DNA of 64,000 nt. Source: Blasia pusilla. Its lineage: Eukaryota. Below the pieces are notes generated by a model. The model was not told the DNA's origin. It did no database searches and worked only from the letters and a program-made list of their open reading frames with translations. Numbering within the stretch: the stretch's first letter is position 1; the number at the start of each line of letters is the position of its first letter. Shown in pieces: positions 1 through 56,667 of the stretch. Location of the stretch: the NCBI GenBank assembly GCA_050084515.1, contig CM114271.1:9610001-9674000 (forward strand), given 5' to 3'. The translations under genes and the position numbers were made by a program.

Positions 1-784
1 TAGCGAAGCATGGCGAAGCATGGGAAACGGGGCGATAGGGGCATATCTCGAGCATTACTCGGCGTTTTGAGGCTTCGAGGCAACTCGAGGCAACTCGTGG
101 TAGCTCGGGGCGAGTGGGCGTGAGAGGCGGAGTAAGGAGCAAGGAGAAAGCAAGCAAGCTTGCTTGCTTGGGCGTGAGGCAATTTTTGCAGGATTTGTGA
201 TTTGAGTGTTGCATAACTGGTCACCCATCTTTGGGCTATTCTGCCTGGAGGAGGCTTAATTGCTGAGTTCTTAACTATGCAAGTGTACACACTGTTGTAG
301 CTCATTTGGTGCTATTCGGAGATATGTTAGGCGCTTTATGCATCTTAGGTTTTTGGTCCGTGTACCTCTAGCGCATAGTACGGTGTAGCCTCTCCATGCA
401 GGTGATATTTTCAGGTGCTGCGAGTTTGACTAGCACGTCATCGACCCGCGGCGGAGTAGCTATTGCGTTAGAATTGTGTGGTGGGTTTTGTGGATTCAGG
501 GGGCACTACGTTTGGTAGATTGTGTTACCTTGATTTCCATTTGCGATTGGAGGGTTGTGGTTGGACTTCCTGTGTTTGAATCCCCTCCATCGTTGCTTCT
601 TGCTTGCGCGCCCATTGTTAGGGTTGACGCTGATTTCCAGAGTAGTGTTACTCCTGTGTGCTACCGATAGTGAGGCTGGAGTGATGATAAGTAGACCGTG
701 GGAGGCTTCTCGTGGTGATGACAGGTTAGGTTGCCTACACCCATAGCTAGTAGAGCTAGAATAGTATAGCGATATCGACGTCAC

Positions 785-2377
785 TTGGTTATTTGGTGGT
801 GGTTATTTGGTGGTGGTGCGGCATCGGCGTTGGTCATCACGGAGCTGTCGGGTGGTCTGGTTGGAGACCGTGGTGCGGATAGTGGTGGTTTCACACGGAG
901 TGGATTTAGGTATCGGCTACCTTTTCCACTTCCGACGGTTGATGAAGAGGAGGACGAGGGTGTTCCAAACATCGAGTCTTCTACGTTGTTATCGAGTGTT
1001 GCAGCTCCATTGATTTGGGACATGGACGGGATATATGGGGCCATGAAGGGCCCACGATGATACTCAGGTGCAGTGGGCACCATTGAGTTGGAGGACTTCA
1101 TGCAAGAGTTTGATACATGGTGTGATATGCAGATGTTGCGGAACGCCACGTTGTTTACACCCTTCTTGGCTTGGAAGGGGTTGTTTCAACACTTGGAAGG
1201 ACCACCCATGGATGATTACCATGAGTTTAGGAAGGACCATGTTGCTGAGATTGAGGCGTGGAGACAATATTGGTCTCCAGGCTATGTGTCTATCACCCAT
1301 GGAGGTATTGGTAGTAGTGCTCCTACTATGCCAGCCAGCTTGACGTTGAGTGGTACGAGTACGAGCCGGAGTGGGGGTACGAGTGGAGGTACCCATGGAG
1401 GTACTAGTGGGGGTACTAGTAGAGGTACTAGTGCCCCACCATCGTTCAGCCCGGTTGCAGAGTTCTTCAAGAGGTTGAAGAAGAACTATGAGGGAGTGAA
1501 GACAGAGAAGTTGAGGAGTCTTCAGGAGTTTGAGCGAAAGACTGGTGAGAGTCTTCGTGAGGCATACACTCGTATGTGACGCTTGATTTCAGTTACCCAA
1601 GGTGTGACTGAGGCTCACGCAGTCCAGTTTTGGTATGGGATCTTGGACAGAGACTTGCGCCGTAGGGTACGTGATGCTACTCTTATGAGTGATGATTCAC
1701 CCACATTGACCCATGTGTTTGCTCTATCTGAGAAGATTGAGCTTAACATGATGAAGGAGAGAGTGGTGACATCCGCATTCAGTAGGGATACAACTACTAC
1801 TTCTCATGTTCAGTAGCCCACCTCACAGTCTCGTAGTAGTGGTGGTGGTAGTAGTAGTGGGAGTCGTGGGGGGTACACACGACCTCAGTTAGGTCGTAGA
1901 GGGACACTTGCGCAGAGACCATTGCCTTCATTTGCTGCCCCGCAGCAAGGACAATCATGTTGGATATGTGGAGGTGCTCATGTTAGGAAGTTTTGTCCCC
2001 AAGAGGATGGGAGACGGACTTTGGAGGATGGGCCTCAGTCGGCCCCAACTCAGTGTGATCATTGCGGGAGACCAGGTCATCCTCGAGAGCGTTGCTTTGA
2101 TCTTCATCCAGAGTTGAGATCAGGCCACGGCCGTGGTGGAGTAGCTCCGAGAGGCCGAGGTGGTAGAGGTGGTAGGGGTGGACCAGTGGTTAGAGAGCCT
2201 ACGGTGGCTACCCCTACCACTACGACAGAGTCAGCTATGGCTGCCAGGATTGAGAAATTGGAGCAGAAGTTGGCTACTATGGCTGGTATCCAGCATAGAT
2301 TAGGTTCGGGAGCAAGGGCTTCCACCTCTTATGGAGGGATGATCTCTCTTATATGGCGAGTGCAAAGACGAGGTTGA
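785..2377 (+). pseudogene. gag: gag of family A (interrupted)
   Basis: ORFs 785-1060, 1073-1579, 1583-1816 are one frame broken by stops; FERKTGESLREAYTRM is a retrotransposon-gag-like motif; zinc knuckles CWICGGAHVRKFC and CDHCGRPGHPRERC in 1922-2377. Confidence 0.85.
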
Positions 2378-2859
2378 GGCATCACCGGCAGCGATTTGAG
2401 AGGAGCCACTCGAGCGTCGAGCCACGTGGTGCTACTTGTGGAGTTGGATCCACAGAGGGGTGAGGTCGGGAGGCAAAGCTAGGCTTCCCGGTCATTCTTG
2501 TTGTCCGAGGTGCTTAGGACTCTATCCATGGTTCTTACGCAGCCTATTGAGCCGACAATGGGGATCGAGGCATCTACATCGCGTGTAGTAGACACGGATG
2601 CAAACATCCGAAAGGCAAAGATACGGATGGCAACTTCATTTTTGGGATCCCCATTGTTTTCGGCCACGGAGCTCATGGCTTTAGGAGTTGACTTAGCTCA
2701 TGTATTTCAGCTAGCAGCCATGTTGTGTGAACGTGGGGGTGTTACTGCTACACGTGCTGAGGTGGATGAGGGTGTTGCGGTGGAGCGACCCTCTATGTCG
2801 TGTAGCATTGAGTACGAGTGCTACTTGGCGGCAAAGCAAGATGGCAAAGATGGATGCAT

Positions 2860-3010
2860 TACCAGCCCGGCCAGCCATTGATCGTGAGGGGCTTACACCT
2901 GGTGTATGTATGTTGGACAACCGGAGTGGGATATTCCGATTGGTGAGTCCTACAGGACAGGTGTATAGACCAGATAGAGTCTTGTTAGACTCTGGCAGTC
3001 CAGGGATGGA
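2860..3010 (+). pseudogene. aspartic protease remnant, apparently truncated just after the active site
   Basis: RVLLDSG motif at ~2977-2997 in ORF 2727-3017; ORF ends a few codons later. Confidence 0.6.
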
Positions 3011-3406
3011 CGTATGAGCCAAGTTCCTGTGAGATTTATTTATGGGGCTCGACCAGGAGGGTCTTCCCCAACAGTGTTAGTATCTGTGGCTGGTTTTAGC
3101 AGAGTAGTCACTTGGCCAGGAGACTTTTTGGAGGGTAATGTTTCTGCTATGGATTCTCCTGCGCATGAGGAGGTAGAGGAGGTCCCTATTTTTGCAGCAG
3201 TAGCATCCTCATCGTTGGATGTGCCACTTTGGAGTTCAGGCGATGCACTACGGTAGGTGGCTGATCGCCTAGTGCAGGAGGCTTGGTGTGAGGCTCTTAT
3301 ACCTCACGAGGAAAAGGAGGCCCCACGGCGGACTCCTACTTCTGATCCAGTTGGGTTATCCCCTTTGGATACTACACCCATTATATGGCAGTATCCGCCG
3401 GAGGGC

Positions 3407-4370
3407 ATTTGTGTGTTAGATCTCTTTGGTGGGATTAGCACTGGTTTGGCTGCAGTGTTGCAGGCCGGTATTCCTGTGCGGAGATACGTGTATGTGGAGT
3501 GAGATGAGACGGCCCAGGTAGTCTCATCCCGACATATTGGTCAGTTGATGCGGAGATATCCTGAGTTGTTGCCGCCATCAGCTATTCGTGGGTACCAGCG
3601 TGCTTTGCCGTCACACATTGCATTGTTGGGGGCGCAGGACCTTGAGAGGATTGGTCCTGTGGATTTGGTGATTGTTGGATGGCCATGTCAGGGTCATACA
3701 CGTGCTGGTCGTTGTGAGGGATTACACGACCCTAGGTCTCGATTGTTTTGGGAGATGTTACGGGTGTTACGACATCTTCAGGTTCATCAGGCATATGCTC
3801 TAGCTTACATTCTGGAGAATGTTCCATTGTTGGGTGACACTCGGACCCGGATGATGGCGAGTGTTCATGAGGTGCGGTCTTGGATTGGACCAGCGGTGTT
3901 GTTGGATGCACATGAGTTGGCTCAGCGTGCACATCGTCCACGCTTGTGGTGGAAAAACTTGTTGCCTAGGGAGGTTCTACGTCAAGCATATGATGTAGTG
4001 CAGCGGGATCCTTGCTTTACAGTGGATAGTATCTTGGATACTGGGCGACTTTCTCAGGTGGTGAGGGTTATTGATCGGTCACCCATGGCAATGGTGAACC
4101 GTGTGGGCCATCCTAGGATGGCACTACCCACATTTGTGAGTTTTCCCTCGTCACATGCGTACAGGGAAGGTGGTTCCGGGCTTGTATGGGATTCTCATGT
4201 GCGACAGTTGGTAGAGCCTAACGCTGATGAGAGAGAGCGTGCAGTGGGATTTTCTACTGGTGTGACAGCGGTTGCTTCCATTTCTGAGGCTTCACGACGT
4301 CATGTGTTGGGTCAGACCATGGACCTGAATTGTTTGACTTGGATTTTGAGTCTTGGTATGGCCGAGCGTC
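3407..4370 (+). pseudogene. DNMT3-like C5-cytosine DNA methyltransferase domain within pol
   Basis: Motif I VLDLFGGISTGL (3413), motif IV GPVDLVIVGWPCQG (PC at 3683-3688), motif VI YILENV (3815), motif VIII AHRPRLWWKNL, motif IX ERERAVGF, motif X RRHVLGQTMD; single in-frame TGA at 3500-3502. Confidence 0.92.
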
Positions 4371-4602
4371 GACTTGGACTATGTGCGTGGGTCTTCCACC
4401 CCTTGTAATGAGCTCCATGACTACCGGGACGGTAGAGGCATCGGCTGGGGGCGAGGAGAGTAGTATTTTGCATCCTTGGAGTAAATGGGATGTAATGGCT
4501 GGGCATGTGGAGTTGGTTGCTCATGCTGGTGGAGGAGTTATTTGGTTAGATGATGGTGTAGCTAAGGGTGTACCATCTTGTGAGGGAGTTGCATAGCAGC
4601 CA

Positions 4603-6018
4603 ATGGCATCGTCCTCTCCCTCTAGTGTGCCAGTGGAGGAGACTTGGGAGCCATTACTTGGGCCCAAGCTTATGGGAGGTGAGAAACGACGCTTGACACA
4701 GTTCCTACGTGCTTATGGGAGTTGTTTTGCCTTTAGCATGAAGGAGTTGGGTTCTCTGGTTGGACCCGGTATACGGATTGATTTGGCTAGTGATACGCCA
4801 ATCTTCCGTCGTCCCTACCGATATAGTGATATGGAGAGGGACCTGATTCAGAGTAGGACGTTGGACCTTTTGGAGGCTGGATTAGTGGAGTTGTCGCATG
4901 GAGAGTATGCATCAGCCAATGTCATGCCTGCTAAAAAAGATATGCATGGCAACTACACAGATAGGCGGATGTGTGGAGATTATCGTCCTATCAATCGGCA
5001 AACCAAGGCTAATAGGTATGCCAGGCCTACACCTGAGGAGATCTTTGATGTGGTGGGATAGGCAAAGATTTTCAATACTTTGGATCTCCGGGTAGGATAC
5101 CATCAATTTCCGATTCGGGAGAGTGACAAGGCCAAGACAACATTTTGGGGTGTCAACTCTCATGGCAAGGATTGTTTGTACCAGTGGAAATTCTTACCCT
5201 TTGGGTTGAAGAATGCACCTGCCGGGTTTCAGAGAGTGATGGACAGGATCCTAGCAGGGTTGGATTTTGTTCGGTGTTACATTGATGATATCTTGGTGTT
5301 TGAGAACACGGTGGAGGAGCATCAGATACATTTGCAGATGGTGTTTGAGCGGTTGAAAGCTCATGGTCTACGTTTGCATCCAGGAAAGTGTAAGTTCTTC
5401 CATGAGGATGTTGAGTACTTGGGTCATGTGATCTATCCATGAGGTTTGGGAGTTCAGCAAGCAAAGGTGGAGGCTATTGCACTTATTCCGCGTCTGATAG
5501 ATGTGAGTAGAGTTCGAGCATTCATGGGATTGGCGAACTACTATCGGAGGTATGTGAAGGGATTTAGTGCTATGGCAAAGCCTTTGAACCAATTTCTGAA
5601 ATCAAATCAAGAGTGGCATTGGGGAGATTATCAGGAGAGAGCTTTTGTGGAGCTTAAGGCCCAGTTGGTGGCAGCGCCTATCTTGAGGAGACCTATCAGA
5701 GGGCGCCCATTTCAGTTACACACTGATTGGAGTAGGTTAGGACTTGGAGCGGTCTTGACACAAGATGATGATGAGCACATGGAGTTTGTGGTGGCCTATG
5801 CAAGTCGTTCGAATAATGCAGCGGAGTCGCGCTATAGTTCATATGAGGGAGAGTGCTTGGCAGTAGTGTGGGCTGTGGCACACTTTAGGTGTTACTTGTT
5901 TGGCACACAGTTTACCCTTGTTACTGATCACGAGCCGCTCTAGTGGTTGATGGAGTCTGACAAGCTTACATGGAAGCTTGCACGGTGGGCTCTTATCTGA
6001 CAGGAGTATGACTTCCAG
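4603..6018 (+). pseudogene. pol: reverse transcriptase and RNase H of family A
   Basis: RMCGDYRPIN, LDLRVGYHQ, LPFGLKNAP, YIDDILVF, FQLHTDWS, YSSYEGECLAVVWAV, TDHEPL; same frame with premature stops at 5059, 5440, 5941, 5998. Confidence 0.95.
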
Positions 6019-7724
6019 GTGGTACATAGACCTGGAGTTGCCAACCTTGATGCTGATGGGTTGAGTAGGAACCCATGTACTAGCCAAGAGGATATAACTG
6101 GGGCTAGATGGCATGGCGAGGTTGATGAGGAGATGGTGCCAGGTTGGCATGCATCCGCCCTTTTATGTTGGTTAGGGGTGGACTCTAGTATGGAGGACCA
6201 CATTATATCTTACTCTAGTCAGAGGGTAGATGGCCAGCCTTCAGATCCTAAGGTTGGAGATGGTGGTACGGATCAACGTGATATTCATGACGATGCGTTG
6301 GTATTGGAGTTCCTACGGACCAGTAGGGTGCCAAACATAGTGAGTGCCAAGGAGCGAGACCGTGCTCTTCAACGTGCTAAGAGGTATCGATTGGAGGGAA
6401 CACATATTCTCCGTGTGTGGGAGGATGGTAGAGTACGAGTAGTTCCGCATTTGGCTCAGAGAGAGCGCATTGTGCGACATGCCCATGAGGAGTTGGGACA
6501 TTTTGGGGTAAAGCGTACGTATAGCTTACTCCTTGGCCAGTATTGGTGGCGTGGCATGCATATTCAGGTGCAGCAGTTGGTGTCATGTTGTATGGTTTGT
6601 GACCGGGTGAGGGCATCATTCAATGCCCCTACACCATAATTACACCCCTTGCCTATTATGGGGTTGGGTTACCGTTGGAGTGTGGACTTTGCGGGACCGT
6701 TATCGTGGTTGGTATGCGATATCATCGATATGTGTTGGTGATGGTGGAGCACTTCTCCAAGTGGATTGAGTTGGTGGCATTACCGGACAAGGCAAGTGAG
6801 GGAACGGCGTATGCGTTTCTTGATAGAGTGCTTAGTCATTTTGGTGCACCAGCTCAAGTGCTAACCGACCAGGGTACAGAGTTTTAGGGTGAGTTTCTGG
6901 TCTTGTGTGACAAGGCGGTGATTGATCATCGGACCACCTCTCGAGATCATCTAGAGGCGGATGGTTTGGTTGAGCATGTGGTTCAGACGGTGAAGAGGGC
7001 ATTGCGCAAGTATGGCCTACAGAAGGGGCATCTTGGAGACTGGGATATTCAGTTGCCATGGTTAGCCATGGGGTATAAGTTCAGTCGCCAAGCATCCTTG
7101 ACTTCCTTCTCACCTTATTTTTTGTTATACGGCCGAGATCCAGACTTGCCAGCAACAATTTGTCGGGAGTCTAGTGAGGTGGTGAACCTTGATGACCCAA
7201 AGATGTGGATGAGAGTGTGTTCTCAGCGGGCAGAGCTCTTTCGGAGAGTTATGCCAACAGCCTTTGAGAATCTTGCCATTGCTCAACACAGGGATACGTT
7301 GTGGTATGCAACCATTCGGGGTGGAGGTTATCGACCATCGATTCGTAGGTTCCATGTGAAGGACTATGTCTATTTGCAGCAGATTGCACCGACAACGTTG
7401 GATGTGACGGAAGACTGCACTATTTTACGAGTGCGCGAGGTGTTAGCTTCTGGAGTTCTCATGTTGGAGGGTCGTGATGGAGTTGTTTGGAAGGACCATG
7501 TGCGTAATTGTGCGCCATGTCATCTTCCAAATGTGGATGGTACTGTTGACCCAAGCTTAGCCATGATACGTGCTAGCTTGAGGTGCAATTTGTGTGGGTC
7601 TGTTGTTAACGCAGCCCGTATGTTGGTGTGTGATCGGTGTTCTAGGGGTTGGCACATGATGTGTTTGACTCCACGTATGGATGTTGTTCCTACTAGAAGG
7701 TGGGTTTGTCCTCGATGTACTTAG
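6019..7724 (+). pseudogene. integrase (HHCC zinc finger + DDE core) with C-terminal PHD finger
   Basis: HEELGHFG...CMVC; VDFAGP, EHFSKWIE, LTDQGTEF, DGLVEH; SPYFLLYGRDP; C4HC3 PHD CNLC...CDRC...WHMMC...WVCPRC at 7584-7721. Confidence 0.93.
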
Positions 7725-7899
7725 GAGAGGTAGATGACTTGATCTTTGCATGATATGGATTACAAATGTGCGACTAACGATGGGGCAACCTAGCACCCGG
7801 CCTTCTGATTCGGGCATCCAAGAATGTGTATAGCATGTAGTAGATGTATAGGGCTACCTGGGAGTTATAGGGACCTAACCGCAAGTTAGGGGGGCGAGT

Positions 7900-8479
7900 T
7901 GTGGTACACTTGTGTTTGTGGATGCTCTCGTCTATGTTATGTATGTATGTGAGTATGGTATGTCAGCGATGTATGTTGTATGACAATGTGGATTCGCACG
8001 ACAACTGTCATGACCATACGGATTATGTCGTAGAGTATAGTGTGCTAGTAGAGGCCATTCCTTATGTAGGACCATAGTGGCTTGGTAGAGATGTGGTTTC
8101 ATACATAGGGTTGGGGGTTACTCAGTTGGGGGTGACTTTCTCAATAGGGCTCGCTCTTAGGTTGGAGGATATAAGGTGGACTGCACTCAAAGAACAGTCA
8201 GTTCTTTGAGTTGAGCATGTTGCGTTGGAAGGTAGCCTTGGTAGTGAGTAGAGCTCTTGGCTATGGTGTTTCCCGCAAGCTTCGACATAGATTCTCCCAT
8301 CATGGAGTGGGTTTGGCTCGATTGTATGTGATTCTATACGTGTTTTATGACAGTAGGTCTTTCACGGATTTCAGTTGTGGTACACTTGTGTTTGTGGATG
8401 CTCTCGTCTATGTTATGTATGTATGTGAGTATGGTATGTCAGCGATGTATGTTGTATGAGAATTTGGATTCGCACGACA
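7900..8479 (+). repeat. probable 3' LTR region of family A, beginning and ending with a 104-bp direct repeat (7900-8003 and 8376-8479)
   Basis: Follows purine tract AGGGGGGCGAG (7888-7898); both repeats start TGTGGTACAC and end CGCACGACA. Confidence 0.65.
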
Positions 8480-8641
8480 TTGTGGACATCTGACTGGCAC
8501 TAAGGTATAGGAAACACAAACAAGAAATCATCTTCAATATTTGACCCGAGTTTTTTCTGCGCTGCTTTCATGTACGATAGCCTCTATAGAATTTGATCAC
8601 ACTTGTCATTGAATCTAAGTTATAAGCGCCAAGAGAAGTTC

Positions 8642-9700
8642 GGGGGTTGGTATTTTGGCATGAGAGAGTAAGAGAGGAGAGTCTCTCTTCAAAAAAAAAA
8701 CCCAAAATTCCTTACCTCTCTTCAAATTTAATCTTCTTCTGTATTTCAAATGCAAGAATTTTTTTGAAGAGAGTAAGAAGTGGACCATGTTGGGGCACAA
8801 ACTAACATCATTTTTAACACCAGGATGTGAGGATGGAAGAGTGGATACCACTTCAGATATGCTAAAAGTAGTATCTGTGTAGGCCAGTGTTGAAGGCAGG
8901 ACGGTATCCAAACAATGCAGATCGATCAGATGGGATTTGTTCACAACGAAACAAATTATATCCGTTCAAAATACACTCAGACTACCGGGTCTACTCCAAA
9001 ACGGTCACTGATGACAAATTGGAATTTGGTGAGTTTGGTACAAAGTGTAGGATTGCAATATTGCCAATAATGACTCAGAAGACCCGGAGTCCACGAATCA
9101 GTTAGAAATGTTGGCTAAAAAATGGGAACATGGAGTCTCCAGGAGGCTGATGGGAGTTTGGAAACTCTCTTTAAACACACCTATGAGAAGAAAAGGAAGC
9201 CAACAAGAAGGCCTAAAATAATTTCAAGACAGAGGAAAAGAGAAGCAATCAGCCAGCCAACCGGTCAGAATCTGATATGTTGCTAGACGTCAGAAGTCAA
9301 GAGATGCTAGGGACGTAACAAGTGAAGAGAGAGAATGAAATGAATTGAAGGCATCATCCTCACATGCAACCTGTCAAAATCCGACAGATTGCATGACAGA
9401 TGAAGGCTGGATGTAAGACGAAGGTCAGAATGAGACATGTTGTTAGGCATGACCACTGTAAGATTTGATAAATTTAGACAAGATGAAAAATGAAAAAACC
9501 TCATTTTAGTAGAAGGTCTGATGGTTCGGGTCCAAAAAGGAGTTAGAAATTTTTGAGCTTTTGCTCAAAACTTCATTTTTCCTAAAACTTAGCGAGAGTA
9601 CTAGATGCACATGGGGACCATGTTGGCCAAAATTCAACTCAAGATCACAAAGTTGGACAAGATGAATGTGCGCCCCTTCATAAGTGGCTCCCATGTGTGT
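8642..9700 (-). mobile_element. terminal fragment of a diverged member of the MULE family E (cargo-side end)
   Basis: GGGGGTTGGTATTTTGGCATGAGAGAGTAAGAGAGGAGAGTCTCTCTTC matches the termini at 45860 and (reverse complement) 33733; degenerate family palindromes at ~9257 and 9366; inner boundary approximate. Confidence 0.6.
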
Positions 9701-12388: not shown

Positions 12389-15300
12389 AGAATGGAAATG
12401 GGTATGAGAATGAGAATGAGAATGAGAATGTTCAATTTATAGTGAATAGGGACTCAGATTCTCTTGACAGAATTTGACTAACAAGATGAAGTTTGGTAGG
12501 TGAGATTGTCTGACATTATGGATTCAGTTGTGTTGCAACATGTCAAAGTCCGATACGTTGCAGAATTTGGGAATCAGAGACATGGGTTGCGAAGAACCTA
12601 GTTCCGTTTTTTGTTTCCCTGTCCCACTGCAAATTAGAAGCCGTTGGAGTCCGTTGGGTTGGTACCCCCTTCATGCCGACCAATGGTCTTTTGAGACGAT
12701 TTTGCTATTATCAAACACGAGACATCGCTTGCATTTGCTAAGGCATCTAATCACTGGGGACTGTTAGGAGATTGTCCAACTCAGGGTAGACCTTGTGACC
12801 CGTCAGATTGCAAGAGGTTGCCTCAGAACTATCCGTTGTCGCACTGTTACCCAAGGGATAGAAAAGAGTGCAACCTATCAATAACCGACGGGTTGCCTAG
12901 GTACCTTTCCTATTACCCCAAGATGAGGGAAGCGTACAACCCGTCGGCCTCCAACGGGTTGCGCAAGTGCCTCGCCTTGTAACGCTTACATGAAGGAAGT
13001 GTGCAACCTGTCGGCCTCCGAAGAGTTGCGTGGGTACCCTGCCTTGTTATCCCAAGACGAGGGAAGCGTGCAACCCCCCTGTCTCCGACGGGTTGCGTGG
13101 GTACCTCGCGTTCTTGCCCCAAGACGGCAAAGGCACCCAACCTGTCGGATTCCGACAGGGTGCCAAGATAGCTCAATTTTTTAACTCGAGGAGGACGGAT
13201 GCCTCCAACCGGTCGGAGACCGTCAGTTGGTGGTTTTCATGTGCAAACTTGCATAACGGCCGACACGTCACCGTTGAAATGACGATGCGATCCAACAGAC
13301 AACCCAACGTCTCAAAAAGTATAAATAGGCGAGGGTTCGCTCATTTCCGGTTTTTTGTTTTGCGATCTCGATTGGTCTTCAGCGCAGCAGCGGACCAGAT
13401 ACCAAGGGTGTCGTGCGCCTACTCTCCTTGAACGTTAATCTTGTTTGTTGCGGAAGCGTGCATTCAGTAGGTCACGCTCTCAACGCTGATCTGCATCCAA
13501 ACACGCACTTCGGTTAGTCGGGTCTTGGATCAATCAGCGGGATTACTTTTCGAGTTCTCGTCTCGGAATCTCTTCAAGCTCAACCTTCCTAGTTTCGCGG
13601 TTTCCAACACGTGCAAGTCTCGAAAGACTTGGGACAGACTTTCTGGTCGGTTCAAGAACCTGAAACGGCGTTTCGCGCCTAGCGGTTCCAACTATCCGAT
13701 GAACATCCAATGAGTTCCTCACCAAGACTCGCACGAAGTGAATCTCGGGTTGGAATCCAAGGGTGGCGTACAAAGTCCACTCCCTTGGATCAGGTTTGGG
13801 TTTCGGGTTTCCGTGCCAAACTCCCGTTCCATCCCGTGCCTCTGAAACGCCGTTTGGCGCCCAAAGTGGGGTTTTGTTTCCCGAGACATCTCAGAGAAGG
13901 TACTCCCCTTACTAGTACTTCTCGGGATCTCCGGGGGCCCCCTACATTTAGGGAAAGACACCCGGGCCTCTCCAATTGGCCCTCAACCCGATTGCTCTCT
14001 CAATCGTTTTTGGCCAATATCTCAGCTTGTACTTATGTGTTTGCTGAGATCTTTAGTGCGTTGGAAGCGTCTCAAAATCAGCTTTCCAACACGCTCTTAT
14101 TTATCCCAAACGCATCTTGGAGCTCAACGTTATGGTCCTAAACACAGACATATTCTCCCAAACGCTAGTCGTGTTCCAAACTGGTTCTCACCTCTTTGGC
14201 AACCAACCTCCCAAGACTCAACTCATCTCAAGTCTCGGCTCGCGTTTGGTCTAGGTTTCCTGGTCGCGACCACTAATGCATGAAACGCACAACTCTGTTC
14301 TACGTTTTGTCTCTTAGACTTTTCCAAGAGACTCTTCCAAACGCCTCTCCAAAGCGCAAACCTCGCAGCGTGAGTTCCTTTGAGTTCTGATGTTTCGCTT
14401 GGCGCGTATTTGGTGTTGTTTGGTTATGAGGGTCGCGACAAAGGGGCACTTTACACGGTGACTCATCGCGAGACGATTCGAGCGACTCATCGCAAAACGA
14501 TCCAAGCGACTCATCGTGCATAGAAAGTAATTTCGTTGTCGAGGAGGAGGCATTTTCGGGAACAATGACGAGGAAAAAATCTCAAGCAAGCAAGGCTGGG
14601 AGCTTCACTCTTAAGTCCATGACTCCTGCATCACCATCTCTAGGGCCTCGTTTGGCCAATTAGATAAGGCAGCAAGAGATAGAGGAGCGCGAAAGGGAAG
14701 CGGAAATGCACAGGCAAGAGCTTCTTGCAAAACATGTTAAGGAGGTGCTTGAAAAACAGGACGCAAAGGCTGAGGCATCGCAGGCCTTGAAGAAAAGGAT
14801 CGCCAAGGAGAAGCGTGAAAAGAAGCGTTTGGATGCGTCGATGAGGAGAGCAGAACTGGAAAAAGCTCGAAGGGAAAAAGCAATAGCCATTGAAGAAAGC
14901 CCGGCCCGTCCAACCAAAAGTGTTGAGATGCAGGAAATATCCCCGATGAAGTCTGGGGACACAATCAATATAAAATCAGTTGAGGAAACGACCGAAGTTC
15001 AAGTGACGGACGATGAGGTCATGAGGACCGCCAGCGTGGAGATGGTGGACATCTCTGAAGAAGCAGGAGAGCAGTTTTCCTCGTCTCTAAGCCCGGCGGA
15101 AGAAATCGACCTCTATCAGATTGACGAGTTTCTAGGGGACTTGCCAGCTACTGTCCTAGAGCAGTTGGCGGGCCAAGACACCGAACCAATTTTTGAGGAG
15201 GTAAGAAATGATCTTTGATCTTTGAGTTATGTGAAGGCCCATGTTGCAATTCATTGGCAATTCAGTGTAGTTTATTCACTTTGTCCCCGTTGTGACAGTT

Positions 15301-16080
15301 TGTAAAGCAGATGGCACTGATGGAGGGCCAGAACGCCACGAGAATTCCACTTTACCGATTGCGGACAATGGAGTACGTCCGTAAAATTCAGTCTGATGAG
15401 GATATTGTGAAGCTGAAACAGTCGACAATGACAGCATCCTACGTCGACAACTTCCCATGAGTTGCTTGACTGGCCGTTGTTTTTAGAATACGAGAGAGAG
15501 CGAGCGATGGGATTTCCCATAGGAGTGACGGCAGTACCATCTATGTTAGAGGCATCACGACGCCATGTCTTGGGTCAGGCGATGGACCTGAACTGCTTGA
15601 CATGGATCCTCAGCTTGGGAGTGGCTGAGCCGCGTTGTATGAGATTGCGATAGATCATAGCGGTTGCGTTGGTGAGCCCCATGCCTACCGAGACGGTGGA
15701 GGCAGTGGCTGGGGGCGAGACTGGAGGAGATCTACGCACCAGGGGAGATCGGGAGAGACATCCTTGGACTTCTTGGGATGTTTTGCAGGTACGCAAGGAG
15801 ATGATAGCCACAACATCGAGCGTGGTTTCGGGCACTGCACGTGGAGGAGATCAAAGTTTGCAGTTGGCTGTAGGAGAGCGGCCGATCGTTGTTGTTTGAG
15901 ACGGGGTTGCACCATAGCAACCACCGATATCCGCGCCGGAGAGTCCTACCGTAGTCATGATGGAGACTTGGGAGCCAGATATGGGCCCGACTAGTTGCTT
16001 TCGGCCAAAAACATCCTAAAAACAACGACCAATCAAGCAACTCGTTGAACTCCGACGAGTTTCTTTCGGCCAAAAAAAGC
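12389..16080 (+). mobile_element. MULE family E copy 1 (fragment: bidirectional promoter with palindromes, cargo exon 1 and start of exon 2, inverted intron repeats)
   Basis: 12389-12560 homologous to 25720-25890; palindromes 12870-13160; TATAAATA 13320; cargo MTRKKSQA.. from ~14564, intron GTAAG 15201, exon 2 to ~15456. Confidence 0.85.
15491..15990 (+). mobile_element. fragment of a second family-A DNMT-Gypsy (DNMT motifs IX-X to start of RT)
   Basis: ERERAMGFPIGVTAVPSMLEASRRHVLGQAMDLNCLTWILSLG and ETWEP match 4229-4370 and 4618-4645. Confidence 0.9.
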
Positions 16081-21772: not shown

Positions 21773-24700
21773 TCACACTTCTTTGAGGGACAGAATTTGT
21801 TGGTGGATTCCTACTCCTACCTCGGACTCTCTTAAAACTACCAGCAACACATAGTACATGTGCTTACAAGGGAAATACCTTTTGCCACTTGTCTCTCTTT
21901 GGACAAAGTCATCACATGAACATGTGGGAAAGCAACATATGTGCACCACATACATCCCTGTGACACTTGAATTTACAGTGTTGTTCCTGACCCAATACAT
22001 CCTTCCTATTCCATTGCCACTCAAGACATCTTTCGTGGCGATGATCTCCATTTTTGCCTCCCGATCTAATGCAATTTGCTTTGCTCTCTCCACCGTTGGC
22101 CTACACATTCTGTTTCTCTTCACCCCATTTCTAGACTCAAACAGAAATAATGGACTGAGATCATCCACCTTCTCCGGGTACATGTTGACATCAATCTTGG
22201 GTTGAATACGAAATGCGAAGGTCTCTGTAATGCGAACATGCTCCGAACTTCCTCCGTCTACGAGTCTGAAACCGGCACTTGTAAGATTGTCCACTTTGTC
22301 TTGAGTACAGGTCGTACCTGCGGCGATGGGCCAAATCGTGGGGGTATTCCCCGGAGCTCCAATGGCAGCCAGATAAGACTTTCGGAAAGCGCAAGATTCA
22401 TTTGGGCAAAAGAAGTACTTCAATTGATCCCCGGTCCTTGTGAAATGATCAAAGGTTTTGAGTCCCCAAAACCCAGGCAGTGGTCATCTAATCCTTGTAT
22501 AGTTCTTATTTAGGAAAGTGCCGCATGCTCTCCTAATGCCATCTGATCCTGCCGTGCAGGTAAGTCCACGTCCTGGGTTGCTCCGAGATATATGCCACCG
22601 TTTTAGGTTGCAATCCACCTCCATTACCGGAATCCCATATTGTTGAACCACCCTAGTGATAGGATGTTGCGAACTTCCAGCAATGGAGGGCTTTTGAAAT
22701 AAAACATTCAGTGATTTTGGAGAAGTAACTCCATCACGGATTTGGGACGGGTCCGGGGTCCCCGAATACCTGGGCGGCGTAATTTCCTCATCCAAATCAA
22801 TCATCGGATTTGTTCCTCGATGTTTCCTCTTCACCTGCTTGAAGTCAAGATACTTATCTGGTCTCCACGAGTCTCGCTCGGACTGCTCTACCACCATCTG
22901 TATGGGACGTCTTGAAACCCGCCCACGAATATCCCCACCAATGTGTAAGTCTTGCTCGAGTGGAGTTCGAGCTACGCACTGGTTGAAGGCTTCCACATAC
23001 ATTTTTTCATCACCAGATCTCACAGCCGCCCTCACATAGAGCTCGTAGATCGACGGCCCCTTTCCTTTTGTTATGCCTTTTGTGAGGAAGATATGGGATG
23101 CTGCAGACTCTAGCATTGCTCTTGCCTGGTCTTGTTGGCATGCCTCCACAAGTGAAATTTGTTGGCATGCTTGTGACGACCTCCAAGAGGAATGAACACT
23201 TTCTACTCCACTTGTGTTGGGGCAGAGGGTATTTTCATGAACGTTCAATCCCTGCAACGACGGCAAAGTTAGAAGGGAACGAAAATAACTCAGGAGTCAA
23301 AAAAATAAGCGACATGTCGGAACCAGACGGGTTGCAGGCCCGAGATACCCCATGAACGACTCTGCGACCCGTCAGGTCCAGACGTGTTGTAACCTTAAAC
23401 CCGCCTACTGCAACCCGTCGGAACCAGACGGGTTGCAAGGCCGAGGCATCCCATGAACAAATCCTGTGACCCATCGGGTCCCAACGGGTTGCACACTCGG
23501 GTTGCACGAAAAATCTGGATGCAACCTGTCGGTTTCCGTCGGGTTGCACACTCGGGCAACTCGTCGCATCCGAGAGCTTGCTTGGTTTCTTCAGTTTGAA
23601 ATCCCTATAGTTCCCACGCTTCTCACCCTGAGCTACAACTTTACAAACAATTCTCAGCGTGAGCTTGACAAGACAAAATAGTGAACTCACATGCCGCATG
23701 AAGTTTCCCCATTGTCTCATACATACAGTCCACCAACTCAACCAAGAGCACAACTCTTTGTACTTCCCCTCAATCGCATGCTTCCTCCACCACCCATGAA
23801 GTTCTTCCTGACATTCCATGGCCTGCTTCAAGGTTTTGCTGTCCTTGCAGCGTTGGAGTAGAGTGACATGCTCTGTCCTCTTATTCTCCTTGATGCAAGA
23901 TTTGGAGTACCGGGTCTGTTGTTGCCAATGGAAAGCATCCGACCTTTCCCTCTCCGGTTGAACCTCTCCACCCCAGAACACTTCCCGGATAGCAATCCAC
24001 CTAGGTTGTGCATTGTCTGCCATGAACCCATAAATTTCCGGAGGTGGCCTTTTGTTTTCCTTCACCACCTCCAATAAGAGTAACCAGCACATCTTCAAAC
24101 TGCCAACGTCTTCTCCTTTACTTCACAGACAAATATAGTTTTGAGGCCCTTCTCCACATGGTCATAAACATGAGCACCCATCGTCAACCATCCGTTTAGC
24201 ACTCTGTAGCAAATATCAAAGCTTACCCAGCTGCCGTAAAGATTTTCCCCTTCCCCTCATTCGATCTATAAGATCGAGGCCACTCGACGGACCTGGGGTT
24301 GACATTTTGAAGACATAGGCCCTGGATCCCTCGCCTCCTTGGCCCATGAACTGCCATATTTGAATGAATGGAAATCTAGAGTTGGCCTTGATTCTGGCAA
24401 TGGCATCCATTTCGGCCGTCTTTCCATCCAGAACTCGTATTTGGCGCAGCAAATTCTGGAAGCATTCAGGATCAGCGAGAAATGTGAGATTTTCCCAGAA
24501 ATGTTTCTCCTCAGCCGCCGTGATCTTGCCCTGTCCACGGATTCCAAGCGATTGTTCGCAAATTTGTGATGCCGTTGTGAGCTTGATCACTCCGGGCTTT
24601 GAACCCGGAGAGTTTCTGTAGACCTTGGCAACTTTCTTCGTCACATCCTCCTTGTCTCTGAATTGCATCGGTCACAGGATGAGTGTGGGAGCCAACATGA

Positions 24701-25695
24701 ACTGCTTGCCATGTGTACTCTGACGTGGAGCCCAAGTCGTGGACAATGAAAAATATGTATGCAGGACATGCTCCAAAGTAGAAGGGCAATGCCTGACAAT
24801 GAGGACATCGATGGCCTCCCGGCGGTATGGTGTCACCGACCTCATATGGAGTTTCTGCATTCTTGGGGGGGAATTGCGACGTATTGACTCGCCCGTTGCA
24901 CTCTAGATACGGGCATGCTGGACTTCTACACTCCAAGGTTCCGACGCATTGGCAGCGGGAGACAATCCAAGGACCATCTGGAATTGAAGCACTAGTCCGT
25001 TGAAGCCTGCACCATTGATGACAATGAGACTTTATGTCCATACCCTTCAGGCGTCCTCCATCTTTCTTTTGAGCAGGAGCAGCAAGTGGAGGCAACTCAA
25101 AAATGCAAATACCATCGTACGTGGGCGGCAGCTTGTCGACAAGAATGTGCTTGAACATTTTCAAGGCCAGAGACGAAAGCAAACTATTGCCTGATACTCG
25201 CAAGAGGAATGAATAGGCGGATAGAGGGCTCGGTTGGTGTCCGACAGATCCACTGAGGTTGATAACATCCGGAATCTCTTCAGGAAGAACAACATTAATA
25301 CGAGCATGTGAAGTTGGAGTCGAAGCCGGATCTGCAGAGCTTGGAGTTGCAAACGTAGAGCTCGGAGCACTAGGAAATTCTAGACCGTCTACTTGGGAAA
25401 CAAAAGAATTCAGGGGCAGGTCGTAAACTCTGTATTGACCATTTGCTAGAGGTAGGAGATTCCATACGTTACGGTCTGAGGTCACTGGCTGGACCGTCTC
25501 ACCTATTATGTCTTCCGTACCGTCCACCCTAACATCTTTGGATACAAAGATGGTTCCAATTTGGAGAAGAAATCGAACAAAGAGAAAATTTTCATCCACT
25601 GCTATGAAAGACTCACGAGCTTGGGGTTGAATGATTTCTGATTGAGGAAGGGCCGCGAGATGAGTGCCACAAGTGAGCTTAACATAATTATCCAT
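21773..25695 (-). pseudogene. Mutator-type DDE transposase with N-terminal Cys/His domain and C-terminal SWIM finger; one intron 23252-23690; frameshifted
   Basis: VSFDICY (D), GFMADNA (D), SDAFHW (CxxH position), NTSGVESVH (E), SWIM CSCDDF..FPCKH; GT-AG intron conserved in copy 3. Confidence 0.85.
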
Positions 25696-25753
25696 TCCCA
25701 GAAATTTCGTACGGGAGGAGGGTGAGAATGAGAAAAAGAATGAGAATTTTTAA

Positions 25754-56528: not shown

Positions 56529-56667
56529 GACTTTCTGGGTCTTTTTGCGGCTGATTTTCCCTTTCTTTGCAAGATTTTTTTCAGATATCTTGGGTTATCC
56601 ATTAGCAATCAGAAAGGGGTTATGTTGGCCGGGGTTGACGCCAAGTTCCTCAGTAAATCGTAAGCTT

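What the first reader, a model, noticed from the sequence alone, without database searches (positions are those of the whole stretch)
3407..4370. Gypsy retrotransposon encoding a DNMT3-like cytosine methyltransferase inside pol
Seen: all main C5-MTase motifs, including catalytic PC and ENV, lie between protease and RT with one nonsense codon. The sister fragment at 15491-15990 shows the DNMT frame running into the RT frame, so it is part of the polyprotein and a family trait. Motifs resemble DNMT3 (LFGGISTGL vs LFDGIATGL; AHRPRLWWKNL vs AHRARYFWGNL). Known: DNMT-bearing retrotransposons were reported in dinoflagellates and charophyte algae (de Mendoza et al. 2018). Inference: if the host is a land plant this extends that range; the enzyme may methylate the cDNA or the insertion site.
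Basis: partly seen in the sequence, partly recalled or inferred. Interest (0 to 1): 0.8.

Follow-up and report, generated by a model that had tools for sequence, protein, structure and literature searches.

The report
Retrotransposon carrying a DNMT3-like methyltransferase
This is a decayed copy of a jumping gene (a Gypsy-type retrotransposon) whose family carries its own DNA-methylating enzyme domain, a kind first described in a freshwater alga and here shown to be common, conserved and transcribed in mosses and liverworts as well.

Summary
Confirmed. Window 3257-4372 (+) encodes a C5 cytosine methyltransferase domain (PF00145, E 7.6e-9). All six motifs stand in canonical order, and the nearest solved relatives are DNMT3A/B by sequence and by fold. 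It sits in a decayed Ty3/Gypsy-type element: gag-CCHC, protease, DNMT, RT, RNase H, integrase, C-terminal PHD finger.

It is a family trait. The same gag-PR-DNMT-RT order occurs in 15 Marchantia polymorpha gene models, in Calypogeia, Sphagnum and Closterium records, and in 80 metagenome loci. DNMT and RT trees agree, and dN/dS between lineages is 0.13-0.25. So the Gypsy-DNMT3 kind described in Klebsormidium (de Mendoza 2018) occurs in land plants. I found no paper saying so.

- The DNMT ends ORF1. A conserved in-frame stop, UAG/UAA followed by CAR-YYN, separates it from RT in 60 of 66 copies. The sister fragment has it, and three Marchantia models end there. RT-integrase therefore seems to need readthrough.
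- The 3' repeats are B-A-B, as reported for Klebsormidium.
- RNA-seq under the same species label shows sense transcripts from 90-99% similar copies.
- A larger sister clade carries the DNMT between RNase H and integrase.

Enzyme activity is untested; the Klebsormidium domain gave no methylation in yeast.

The parts
1..1020 (+). Leader (5' untranslated part) of the element. The 5' terminal repeat (A1) is not in the window.
   Evidence: Window 832-1100 aligns with the leader of locus L070, 7315-7577, at 73%. In L049, L070 and L071 the A1 repeat lies about 1.1-1.2 kb upstream of gag. That puts it before base 1 here. Nothing in 1-1100 matches 7600-9200. RNA reads already cover base 700.
1021..2377 (+). 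gag remnant with CCHC zinc knuckles, broken by stops and a frameshift
   Evidence: ORFs 1061-1579 and 1817-2377. They are 56-69% identical to the N-terminal parts of Marchantia models P0122 and P0126. A CCHC knuckle lies at 2054-2095. zf-CCHC was found by Pfam in the L043 ORF1.
2483..3256 (+). Aspartic protease region, split over three frames
   Evidence: ORFs 2483-2881, 2715-3017 and 2978-3256. LLDSGS lies at 2982-2999. The intact relative L074 ORF1 gives weak Asp_protease_2 and gag-asp_proteas hits, E 2e-4 and 1.5e-3, both below the Pfam cut-off. Closterium relatives carry PF13975/PF13650 as precomputed domains.
3257..4372 (+). DNMT3-like C5 cytosine methyltransferase domain, motifs I-X in canonical order
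   Evidence: PF00145 at E 7.6e-9. Best PDB sequence matches are DNMT3A at 2.1e-13 and DNMT3B at 1.2e-10, then DRM at 1.6e-6 and HaeIII at 1.8e-4. Family alignment A1 shows the catalytic PC and ENV invariant or nearly so.
3500..3502 (+). Premature TGA, private to this copy
   Evidence: Close family members carry R at this column; the ~45-50% subfamily carries T or V. Of the reads covering it, 81 of 81 (X22), 53 of 53 (X23) and 59 of 60 (X24) show another letter there, as does nearly all DNA contig depth.
4360..4400 (+). Frameshift, frame 2 to frame 1, at the C-terminal edge of the DNMT domain
   Evidence: ORFs 3503-4408 (frame 2) and 4288-4596 (frame 1) overlap. RNA reads leave the window sequence at 4367/4376 as loose ends.
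4373..4593 (+). Linker that ends ORF1 (…HPWSKWDV…EGVA)
   Evidence: It aligns with the C-termini of Marchantia models P0122, P0123 and P0131 and of the unnamed JGI protein P0127, which end at the same column.
4594..4602 (+). Conserved in-frame stop with leaky-type context, TAG CAG CCA, at the ORF1/ORF2 boundary
   Evidence: Of 66 copies, 60 have a stop at this column (40 TAG, 20 TAA). In 57 it is followed by CAR YYN, and in 5 by CAR YYA. It is invariant in the 10-sequence DNA alignment.
4597..5943 (+). Reverse transcriptase and RNase H, with three in-frame stops
   Evidence: RVT_1 at 3.9e-29, RT_RNaseH_2 at 6.3e-32, RT_RNaseH at 1.8e-27. YIDD at 5278-5289. 82-88% identical to Marchantia P0130.
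6001..7583 (+). Integrase: H2C2 zinc-binding domain, rve core and C-terminal region, with one frameshift and stops
   Evidence: Integrase_H2C2 at 1e-15. rve at 7.7e-10.
7584..7724 (+). PHD finger at the integrase C-terminus, and the pol stop codon
   Evidence: PF00628 at 1.4e-9. Coordinates. The nearest solved PHD fingers are DPF2/DPF3 PHD2, MLL3, CHD4, ATXR5, PHF21A, KDM5B and UHRF1. No chromodomain was found.
7897..8003 (+). Repeat B1
   Evidence: 98% identical to 8373-8479. It also aligns with L070 15098-15212, which is that locus's B2.
8004..8372 (+). Repeat A2, the 3' LTR-like repeat
   Evidence: It lies within the 74% alignment of window 7615-8479 to L070 14361-15212. L070 14762-15098 in turn repeats L070 6009-6345 (A1) at 91%. 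RNA coverage and family similarity stop at about 8372.
8373..8479 (+). Repeat B2
   Evidence: The same B-A-B layout occurs in L049, L051, L070 and L071.
15492..15975 (+). Sister fragment: DNMT motifs IX-X, the linker, the same stop (TAG CAA CCA, TAG at 15915) and the first residues of ORF2. Truncated on both sides.

Best explanation
The window holds a dead, 5'-truncated (by the window edge) copy of a Ty3/Gypsy-type LTR retrotransposon. It belongs to a lineage that carries a DNMT3-like cytosine-5 methyltransferase domain and a PHD finger in place of a chromodomain.

Shown:
- The domain order is gag(CCHC)-protease-DNMT | stop | RT-RNase H-integrase-PHD.
- The DNMT is inherited with the element. 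The DNMT tree and the RT tree give the same split and the same inner groupings.
- The DNMT has been under purifying selection between lineages.
- The same order occurs in liverworts, mosses and the alga Closterium.
- Close relatives of this copy are transcribed on the sense strand in the species label that holds the window.
- The 3' end has the B-A-B repeat layout that de Mendoza et al. described for the Klebsormidium element.

Inferred:
- ORF1 makes Gag-protease-DNMT in bulk.
- A leaky UAG in a tobacco-mosaic-virus-like context (UAG CAR YYN) lets a minority of ribosomes continue into RT-RNase H-integrase-PHD.
- The methyltransferase would therefore be made in Gag-like amounts and would probably be assembled into the particle.
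- There it, or its protease-released form, would methylate the newly made cDNA, or DNA around the insertion site.
- The integrase PHD finger would tether integration to a histone H3 tail state.

The window copy itself is non-functional.
For: Identity of the domains:
- Pfam hits.
- DNMT3A/B are the best solved relatives by sequence. The top 29 of 57 PDB sequences are DNMT3A/B/C.
- The same holds by fold. Every Foldseek row shown, down to rank 48, is DNMT3A/B/C, with target-normalised TM of 0.51-0.58 for the catalytic-domain chains and 0.32-0.41 for longer chains. The Atlas structure search gives DNMT3A clusters first.

Family trait:
- 15 Marchantia polymorpha models, 1 Calypogeia and 1 Sphagnum fallax model among 33 long hits.
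- Most show gag-PR-DNMT, some continuing into RT, as mapped by blastp.
- 120 of 278 metagenome candidate stretches encode relatives, and 80 loci were fetched.
- Closterium models show zf-CCHC/PR-DNMT-RT-RH-INT.

Co-inheritance:
- DNMT tree of 63 rows and RT-RH tree of 64 rows. Both separate the 9 DNMT-before-RT rows from the 54 DNMT-after-RNase-H rows on one branch, SH-aLRT 99 and 100.
- Both contain (window, P0130), then L074, and (P0312, P0322).

Selection:
- dN/dS is 0.19-0.25 for window against metagenome copies, at dS about 0.75.
- It is 0.13 for L074 against L078.
- It is 0.40-0.93 among decaying close copies.

Stop codon:
- 60 of 66 copies have it.
- Three Marchantia models (P0122, P0123, P0131) and the unnamed JGI protein P0127 end at that column.
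- All 5 gene models that join DNMT to RT (P0126, P0130, P0132, P0136, P0142) lack the stretch that holds it.
- L074 has intact ORFs of 1369 and 1047 aa in one frame, separated only by TAG CAG TTA.

Transcription:
- Three RNA runs gave 4117, 4005 and 4424 reads laid.
- Depth is about 10-200 from 700 to about 8355.
- Reads with the first mate on the minus strand far outnumber those on the plus strand in nearly every bin. This fits sense RNA if the library is of the usual stranded kind.
- Only 55, 44 and 58 reads are 99% or more alike, so sister copies are the source.

Repeats.

Published parallel.
Against: - No activity is shown for any Gypsy-borne DNMT3. The Klebsormidium domain gave no methylation in yeast.
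- Readthrough is inferred from conservation and context only.
  - Most copies have CAA CCC rather than the full CAR YYA; only 5 of 60 have the full motif.
  - No conserved downstream RNA structure was found: -3 kcal/mol, covariation term -0.33.
- Sister lineages P0188 and P0306 have DNMT and RT in one uninterrupted ORF. The stop is therefore not needed for the design.
- Classical LTR features (PBS, PPT) were not identified. The B-A-B layout has no worked-out replication logic for an integrase-bearing element.
- Nearly all copies seen, 78 of 80 loci and the window, are decayed.
- I never obtained Klebsormidium sequences, host DNMT3 or DRM sequences. Placement inside the DNMT3 clade rests on similarity ranks, not a rooted tree.
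- The AlphaFold model is mediocre: mean pLDDT 54, core 70-90.
- The trees used the quick method.
Confidence: 0.8

Rival explanations
1. One-off capture. A host DNMT3 gene or pseudogene fragment landed inside an ordinary Gypsy element in this genome, with its own boundaries, and is not part of the element's design.
For: The domain has no Pfam-detectable partner domains of its own. The window copy is decayed, so a chance mosaic could look like this.
Against: - The same position, flanks and frame recur in Marchantia, Calypogeia, Sphagnum and Closterium, and in 80 metagenome loci.
- DNMT and RT phylogenies agree.
- dN/dS between lineages is 0.13-0.25.
- A second fragment in the window has the same junction.
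Confidence: 0.02
2. The DNMT domain is conserved, but not as a DNA methyltransferase. It may act on RNA, such as the element's genomic RNA or the tRNA primer. It may instead serve as a DNA- or nucleosome-binding or multimerising module of the Gag-PR precursor.
For: - The Klebsormidium Gypsy DNMT domain produced no DNA methylation in yeast although it was translated. The authors raise RNA methylation for the LINE-borne DNMT.
- Here the domain sits in the Gag-protease ORF, next to nucleic-acid-binding zinc knuckles, rather than with RT.
Against: - The catalytic Cys of motif IV, ENV and the SAM-binding motif I are invariant or nearly so across the family. A pure scaffold would not need that.
- The closest solved relatives are DNA enzymes, DNMT3A/B. 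The tRNA enzyme DNMT2 matches at only E 0.011.
- Human DNMT3B also failed in the same yeast assay.
Confidence: 0.2
3. The in-frame stop between DNMT and RT is not a recoding signal. ORF2 would be expressed in some other way (spliced or subgenomic RNA, reinitiation), or the stop would be an old shared defect of a dead lineage.
For: - No conserved RNA structure follows the stop.
- Only 5 of 60 copies carry the full CAR YYA hexamer.
- Gene predictors bridge the site with introns.
- Sister lineages do without a stop.
Against: - The stop column is kept between subfamilies whose DNMT is only 48% identical and whose synonymous sites are saturated, yet ORF2 stays open (1047 aa in L074) and in the same frame.
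- The next codon is CAR in 57 of 60 copies.
- RNA reads cross the site at even depth. No joint is among the 15 best-supported joints listed; 6 more were not shown.
- A shared defect would not leave RT-INT under constraint: RT is 56-88% identical across these lineages.
Confidence: 0.2

Closest known systems
KnitGypsy-Dnmt3 of Klebsormidium nitens (de Mendoza et al. 2018, PMC5890265; sections 9, 10, 11 and figure legends read)
   Same: - It is a Gypsy-type element with an unrearranged DNMT3-like domain in its coding region.
- It has conserved catalytic residues.
- Its Ka/Ks is below 0.2, against 0.13-0.25 between lineages here.
- Its repeat layout is described as 'that of a DIRS retrotransposon', that is A-coding-B-A-B. 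The window's 3' end and loci L049, L070 and L071 show this layout.
   Different: - The hosts differ. The family here is found in land plants (liverworts, mosses) and in Closterium.
- The paper says Klebsormidium has few copies. Here the scan of metagenome contigs alone gave 120 relatives.
- The paper places the DNMT 'in the Pol polyprotein ORF'. Here it ends ORF1, before a conserved stop.
- I could not see Fig. 4c or the supplements, and I retrieved no Klebsormidium sequence. Direct kinship and domain order remain untested.
RT-RNase H-DNMT-integrase-PHD elements (for example Chromochloris zofingiensis Cz02g39130, P0150, and many metagenome polyproteins)
   Same: - The Gypsy backbone is the same, with a PHD finger at the integrase C-terminus. 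The integrase C-terminal query matches at 34-47% over its full length.
- The DNMT is related, at 30-38% identity.
   Different: - The DNMT sits after RNase H, not before RT: 69 of the 147 proteins examined, against 5.
- The two layouts fall on opposite sides of one well-supported branch in both the DNMT and the RT trees.
- Which layout is older is not resolved. The outgroup joins with support of only 24.
SymbioDIRS-Dnmt3 of Symbiodinium (same paper)
   Same: A DNMT3-like domain in a retrotransposon polyprotein, with A-coding-B-A-B repeats. Two domain orders coexist.
   Different: It is a DIRS element with a tyrosine recombinase, not a DDE integrase. Its DNMT methylated CG de novo in yeast. Nothing comparable is known for the Gypsy-borne enzyme.
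Cellular DNMT3 (DNMT3A/B) and plant DRM
   Same: The catalytic domain is most similar to DNMT3A/B by sequence (E 2e-13) and by fold. The motif order I-IV-VI-VIII-IX-X is unrearranged.
   Different: - There is no PWWP or ADD domain.
- Identity to DNMT3A is only about 20%.
- DRM aligns only over motifs I-IV, to its C-terminal half. This fits DRM's rearrangement, which this domain lacks.
Chromoviruses (Gypsy elements with a chromodomain on integrase)
   Same: A histone-tail reader module is fused to the integrase C-terminus.
   Different: The module here is a PHD finger (PF00628), not a chromodomain. The nearest solved PHD fingers are, from my recall, mostly readers of the unmodified H3 tail (for the list). 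Binding specificity is untested.
Leaky UAG readthrough of tobacco mosaic virus type (UAG CAR YYA) and gag-pol readthrough of murine leukaemia virus (both recalled, no call)
   Same: An in-frame UAG between an abundant upstream product and the polymerase. In the window, the sister fragment, L043, L074 and L078 the next six bases fit CAR YYA.
   Different: Most copies read CAA CCC. No downstream pseudoknot-like structure was found. Readthrough is not measured.

Membership tests
C5 cytosine methyltransferase (PF00145) | Profile match above the curated cut-off | tested here: met
   35.9 bits against a cut-off of 22, E 7.6e-9. The intact relative L074 scores 51.1 bits.
C5 cytosine methyltransferase (PF00145) | Motifs I (FxGxG), IV (PC), VI (ENV), VIII, IX and X present, in that order | tested here: met
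   Coordinates. Conservation across 15 family members.
DNMT3 family | Catalytic domain closest to DNMT3 rather than DNMT1, DNMT2, DRM or bacterial enzymes | tested here: met
   PDB sequence ranks: DNMT3A 2.1e-13, DNMT3B 1.2e-10, DRM 1.6e-6, HaeIII 1.8e-4, DNMT2 0.011. All Foldseek rows shown are DNMT3A/B/C. The Atlas structure rows are led by DNMT3A clusters.
DNMT3 family | Placement inside the DNMT3 clade in a tree with host DNMT3, DRM, CMT/MET1 and bacterial outgroups | not tested
   No named host DNMT3, DRM or Klebsormidium sequence could be fetched with the three protein searches.
DNMT3 family | N-terminal chromatin reader domains (PWWP, ADD) | tested here: not met
   Pfam finds none in ORF1 of the window or of L074. 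A PHD finger exists, but on the integrase.
Ty3/Gypsy (Metaviridae-type) LTR retrotransposon | Order PR-RT-RNase H-integrase with gag upstream | tested here: met
Ty3/Gypsy (Metaviridae-type) LTR retrotransposon | Flanking direct long terminal repeats | tested here: inconclusive
   In the window only the 3' repeat A2 is present. Related loci L049, L070 and L071 have A1 and A2 at 86-91% identity. The extra B copies are atypical. PBS and PPT were not identified.
Gypsy-DNMT3 elements (KnitGypsy-Dnmt3) | DNMT3-like domain encoded within the element's gag-pol coding region, as a family trait | tested here: met
Gypsy-DNMT3 elements (KnitGypsy-Dnmt3) | A-coding-B-A-B repeat layout | tested here: met
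   Window B1 7897-8003, A2 8004-8372, B2 8373-8479. The full layout occurs in L049, L070 and L071. In all, 5 of 20 rows examined show B-A-B.
Gypsy-DNMT3 elements (KnitGypsy-Dnmt3) | Sequence kinship with the Klebsormidium copies | not tested
   No Klebsormidium protein appeared. The supplements were not available.
Chromovirus | Chromodomain at the integrase C-terminus | tested here: not met
   Only PHD (PF00628, 1.4e-9) is found there.
Programmed stop-codon readthrough, TMV type | Conserved in-frame UAG followed by CAR YYA | tested here: inconclusive
   The stop is conserved in 60 of 66 copies and CAR follows in 57. The full hexamer occurs in only 5, the window among them.
Programmed stop-codon readthrough, TMV type | Measured readthrough product | not testable with these tools
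   It needs a reporter assay or proteomics.

The most novel reading that the evidence does not exclude
In bryophytes, a high-copy and transcribed Gypsy lineage makes a DNMT3-type de novo methyltransferase as the tail of its Gag-protease protein. A leaky UAG holds it upstream of RT, so the enzyme is produced in capsid-like excess.

It would be packaged and would methylate the element's own cDNA before or at integration. That would be a self-marking or stealth strategy. It would also be a transposon-borne source of de novo cytosine methylation in land-plant genomes, acting beside the host DNMT3, DRM and CMT pathways.

Probability: 0.3. Interest if true: 0.8.

Novelty: new member of a known kind. 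Interest (0 to 1): 0.6.

Why it matters
What transposon-encoded DNA methyltransferases do is an open question. The only Gypsy example in print comes from Klebsormidium, and its assay was inconclusive.

The same kind of element turns out to be abundant, conserved and transcribed in bryophytes. One of them is the genetically tractable model Marchantia polymorpha, with 15 annotated gene models. That gives a system in which the question can be tested.

The result also warns annotators. Many 'DNA (cytosine-5)-methyltransferase', 'CCHC-type domain' and 'PHD-type domain' proteins in liverwort, moss and Closterium proteomes are pieces of this element, not host methylation genes.

The conserved stop before RT, and the two alternative positions of the DNMT within one element lineage, are concrete and testable features of how such elements are built.

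Tried and rejected
- **Whole-genome search.** No genome is held for this window, so no copy census was possible.
- **Rfam scan of the window.** No match at gathering scores.
- **LTR search in the window.** Nothing in 1-1100 matches 7600-9200. The rest of the window holds only the sister fragment.
- **Conserved RNA structure after the stop.** None: -3 kcal/mol.
- **Klebsormidium and host DNMT3 sequences.** None was retrieved.
  - The third protein search, with alignment A3, returned only Closterium, 51 of 52 hits named so.
  - Two cluster look-ups named only Closterium, for 2 of the 20 proteins asked.
- **Literature.** Seven searches were run, and passages were read in five further papers.
  - None gave a statement that bryophytes carry DNMT-bearing retrotransposons.
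  - The 2025 MBE paper and the 2026 preprint say only 'streptophytes'.
  - Supplements were not available and may list such copies.
- **Marchantia gene identifiers.** Searching for them found no paper.
- **'Chlamyvir' with PHD.** This gave two unrelated papers.
- **Sequencing runs.** No RNA holder was listed by the word index. The RNA evidence comes from laying raw-read runs of the same species label.
- **Host identity.** Organism names were coded. I did not try to decode them.
- **Structure model.** Mean pLDDT is 54. I used it only for fold ranking, not for residue-level claims.
- **Readings rejected.**
  - DRM-type enzyme: the motif order is unrearranged.
  - Chromovirus: no chromodomain.
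  - Splicing as the source of the 6241>7252 and 1102>7333 joints: their ends are CA..TA and CA..TC with extra letters between, so they look like deletion derivatives.
Full report
**1. The observation**

Window 3257-4408 (+, frame 2) is open apart from one TGA at 3500-3502. Read with X at that codon, it matches Pfam PF00145 (C-5 cytosine DNA methylase) at E 7.6e-9, 35.9 bits, against a cut-off of 22.

The six motifs of C5 methyltransferases stand in the unrearranged order:
- I, LFGGISTGL, 3422-3448
- IV, GWPCQG, 3677-3694
- VI, ENV, 3815-3823
- VIII, AHRPRLWW, 3929-3952
- IX, ADERERAVGF, 4223-4252
- X, LGQTMDLN, 4307-4330

HMMER against all PDB chains puts DNMT3A first at E 2.1e-13, then DNMT3B at 1.2e-10 and DNMT3C. 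Plant DRM follows at 1.6e-6, HaeIII at 1.8e-4, HhaI at about 8e-3 and DNMT2 at 0.011.

I made an AlphaFold model of the 71%-identical relative P0003. Its mean pLDDT is 54, with the core at 70-90. Every Foldseek row shown for it, down to rank 48, is DNMT3A/B/C. The ESM Atlas structure search for the Calypogeia relative also lists DNMT3A clusters first.

I could not root a tree with host DNMT3 and DRM sequences.

**2. The element around it**

On the same strand lie:
- gag remnants, 1021-2377, with a CCHC knuckle at 2054-2095
- a protease remnant, with LLDSGS at 2982-2999
- the DNMT
- RT (RVT_1 at 3.9e-29, YIDD at 5278-5289)
- RNase H
- integrase (H2C2 zinc domain at 1e-15, rve at 7.7e-10)
- a PHD finger at the very C-terminus, 7584-7718 (PF00628 at 1.4e-9)

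There is no chromodomain.

The copy is dead.

**3. The sister fragment**

Window 15492-15719 matches 4229-4455 at 73% in DNA and 81% in protein. Its frame runs on, with three stops, to ETWEP, the first conserved residues of the RT ORF, and then ends. It therefore documents the junction, not an RT domain.

**4. A family trait, and in land plants**

*Near-length search.* It gave 147 relatives, the best 77% identical. Named ones come from:
- Marchantia polymorpha
- Calypogeia fissa
- Riccia sorocarpa
- Sphagnum troendelagicum, S. tenellum and S. jensenii

*Search for longer proteins.* It gave 33:
- 15 Marchantia polymorpha models
- one Calypogeia model
- one Sphagnum fallax model
- one Chromochloris zofingiensis model
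- the rest unnamed

I mapped the window's segments onto them. The Marchantia models read gag-PR-DNMT, some continuing into RT-RNase H-integrase. Identity is 60-71% in the DNMT and 82-88% in RT.

*Scan of metagenome contigs.* It found 278 candidate stretches. Of these, 120 encode relatives, and 80 loci were fetched. Only L074 and L043 keep ORFs longer than 600 aa.

*Closterium.* Cluster look-ups and a third search named many Closterium strains with zf-CCHC/PR-DNMT-RT-RNase H-integrase models.

*Selection on the DNMT*:
- dN/dS is 0.19-0.25 for window against metagenome copies, at dS about 0.75.
- dN/dS is 0.13 for L074 against L078.
- dN/dS is 0.40-0.93 among close, decaying copies.

**5. The wider lineage and two layouts**

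A profile search of 1.84 billion representatives found 495 clusters at E ≤ 1e-30. I mapped the layouts of the 150 best, as 147 proteins:

| Layout | Proteins |
|---|---|
| DNMT after RT/RNase H and before integrase-PHD | 69 |
| DNMT followed by integrase, nothing upstream | 20 |
| DNMT alone | 52 |
| Only a short integrase-query match before the DNMT | 1 |
| DNMT before RT, or after gag | 5 |

For the trees I kept sequences with at least 250 profile positions of both DNMT and RT-RNase H. That was 61 of the 113 that have both. I added the window and L074, and used the window's other Gypsy element as the RT outgroup.

The DNMT tree (63 rows) and the RT-RNase H tree (64 rows) each put the 9 DNMT-before-RT rows and the 54 DNMT-after-RNase-H rows on opposite sides of one branch, with SH-aLRT 99 and 100. 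The inner groupings match: (window, Marchantia P0130), then L074; (Closterium P0312, P0322); (P0306, P0188 group).

Caveats:
- The quick method was used.
- Three of the nine rows are identical.
- There is no DNMT outgroup.
- The RT outgroup joins with support of only 24, so the older layout is unknown.

The agreement means the DNMT has travelled with the element for a long time, and that its position changed once, or that it was captured twice from close sources.

**6. The stop before RT**

In the window the linker after the DNMT ends at TAG (4594-4596). CAG CCA follows, and the RT ORF continues in the same frame.

I walked upstream from the start of the RT ORF in every copy. Of 66 copies, 60 have a stop at that very column (40 TAG, 20 TAA). 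In 57 it is followed by CAR YYN, most often CAA CCC. In 5 the full CAR YYA is present. The sister fragment has TAG CAA CCA, with the TAG at 15915.

The near-intact L074 has ORF1 of 1369 aa (gag, weak protease hit, DNMT at 51 bits) and ORF2 of 1047 aa (RT, RNase H, integrase, PHD). They are in one frame and are separated only by TAG CAG TTA.

Marchantia models P0122, P0123 and P0131, and the unnamed JGI protein P0127, end at the aligned column. The five models that join DNMT to RT (P0126, P0130, P0132, P0136, P0142) all lack the stretch that holds the stop. This is what a gene predictor does with an 'intron'.

The subfamilies that share the stop are only 48% identical in the DNMT and are saturated at synonymous sites, yet ORF2 stays constrained. 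I therefore read the stop as a working feature, most likely a leaky stop. The CAR YYA rule and the retroviral parallel are recalled, not tested.

Against this reading:
- No conserved structure follows the stop.
- The lineages of P0188 and P0306 have one uninterrupted ORF.

**7. The ends**

After pol, the window has:
- B1, 7897-8003
- A2, 8004-8372
- B2, 8373-8479; B1 and B2 are 98% identical

Locus L070 shows the full layout: A1 6009-6345, coding, B1 14643-14757, A2 14762-15098 (91% to A1), B2 15098-15212. The window's 3' end aligns with it at 74%.

Of 20 rows with enough flank, 5 show B-A-B: the window, L049, L051, L070 and L071. In three of them, A1 lies about 1.1-1.2 kb upstream of gag. The window's A1 must therefore lie before base 1.

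This A-coding-B-A-B layout is what de Mendoza et al. describe for SymbioDIRS and, in the legend of Fig. 4c, for KnitGypsy-Dnmt3. It is the strongest link to the published element that I could test. How an integrase-bearing element replicates such ends is unexplained.

**8. Expression**

The word index found 20 runs holding part of 3257-5061. The best holds a 0.57 share. Organisms are coded.

I laid three raw-read RNA runs of the same species label on 700-8600 at 90% or more likeness:
- 4117, 4005 and 4424 reads were laid.
- Depth is about 10-200 from 700 to about 8355 and drops to about 2-4 beyond.
- Reads with the first mate on the minus strand far outnumber those on the plus strand in nearly every bin. 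This means sense RNA if the library is of the usual stranded kind.
- Only 55, 44 and 58 reads are 99% or more alike. The RNA therefore comes from sister copies 90-99% alike, not from this copy.
- At the window's TGA (3500), 81 of 81, 53 of 53 and 59 of 60 reads show another letter. That stop is private to this copy.
- Joints 6241>7252 and 1102>7333 look like deletion derivatives.

**9. How it most likely works**

Shown: the anatomy, inheritance, constraint and transcription described above.

Inferred:
- Gag-PR-DNMT is the main translation product, and readthrough adds RT-RNase H-integrase-PHD.
- The DNMT, which keeps its SAM-binding and catalytic motifs across the family, methylates the element's cDNA or the DNA at the insertion site.
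- The PHD finger guides integration. Its nearest solved relatives are DPF2/3 PHD2, MLL3, CHD4, ATXR5, PHF21A, KDM5B and UHRF1. By my recall these mostly read unmodified H3.

The published hypotheses for such enzymes are self-methylation of cDNA, protection from editing, and slowing of transposition. No Gypsy-borne DNMT3 has shown activity; the Klebsormidium domain was negative in yeast, as was human DNMT3B.

**10. Novelty**

The kind is known (de Mendoza 2018). Later texts speak of 'streptophytes (Gypsy-DNMT3)'.

In seven searches and the passages read, I found no statement that bryophytes carry such elements, that the DNMT ends a gag-PR ORF before a conserved stop, or that two DNMT positions exist in one Gypsy-PHD lineage (passages). 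Supplements were closed and may hold part of this.

I file it as a new member of a known kind, with variant features that need the Klebsormidium sequences for comparison.

Noticed in passing
window 53088-58700 (-): A second Gypsy-type element without a DNMT, less decayed. It has ORFs of 440 aa (RT-RNase H region), 288 aa and 168 aa, a protease-like ORF, and gag with zinc knuckles. Its RT is 34-36% identical to that of the DNMT element. I used it as the RT outgroup.
   Followed up: partly
window 21773-25749 (-) and 33853-37276 (-): Two diverged copies of a long repeat that encodes cysteine-rich ORFs of up to 412 aa. They look transposon-derived. They were not searched against any library.
   Followed up: no
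window 12923-13123, 25817-26639, 37816-38352: Arrays of a 67-nt unit that reads as repeats of '...GSVQPVGLRRVA...'. They occur three times in the window, each next to other repeats.
   Followed up: no
window 29096-30325 (+) and 61563-62414 (-); 43983-44971 (-) and 51733-52524 (-): Further pairs of diverged repeat copies with long ORFs. No host gene was recognised anywhere in the 64 kb, and Rfam found nothing. The window looks like a transposon-only region.
   Followed up: partly
window 8035-8323 (within repeat A2): RNA reads in all three runs join 8323 back to 8035 (3, 5 and 4 reads; 'goes back 289'). This could be a tandem duplication inside the terminal repeat in expressed copies. It is unexplained.
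   Followed up: no
window 4597-5943 compared with P0130 (Marchantia) and P0142 (Sphagnum fallax): The window's RT region is 82-88% identical to a liverwort model and 83% to a moss model. The DNMT is only 51-71% identical and gag 53-69%. That is high RT conservation for elements of hosts so far apart. I did not test strong constraint against transfer between hosts.
   Followed up: no
window 1577, 1814, 3254, 3500: At these four premature stops, nearly all RNA reads and most DNA contig depth show another first letter than the window's T. This fits decay of this copy by C-to-T transitions, as expected for methylated DNA.
   Followed up: partly
P0150 (Chromochloris zofingiensis model), residues 737-780: This RT-RNase H-DNMT-integrase-PHD polyprotein also carries a G-patch domain between the DNMT and integrase (PF01585 at 5.1e-5).
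   Followed up: no
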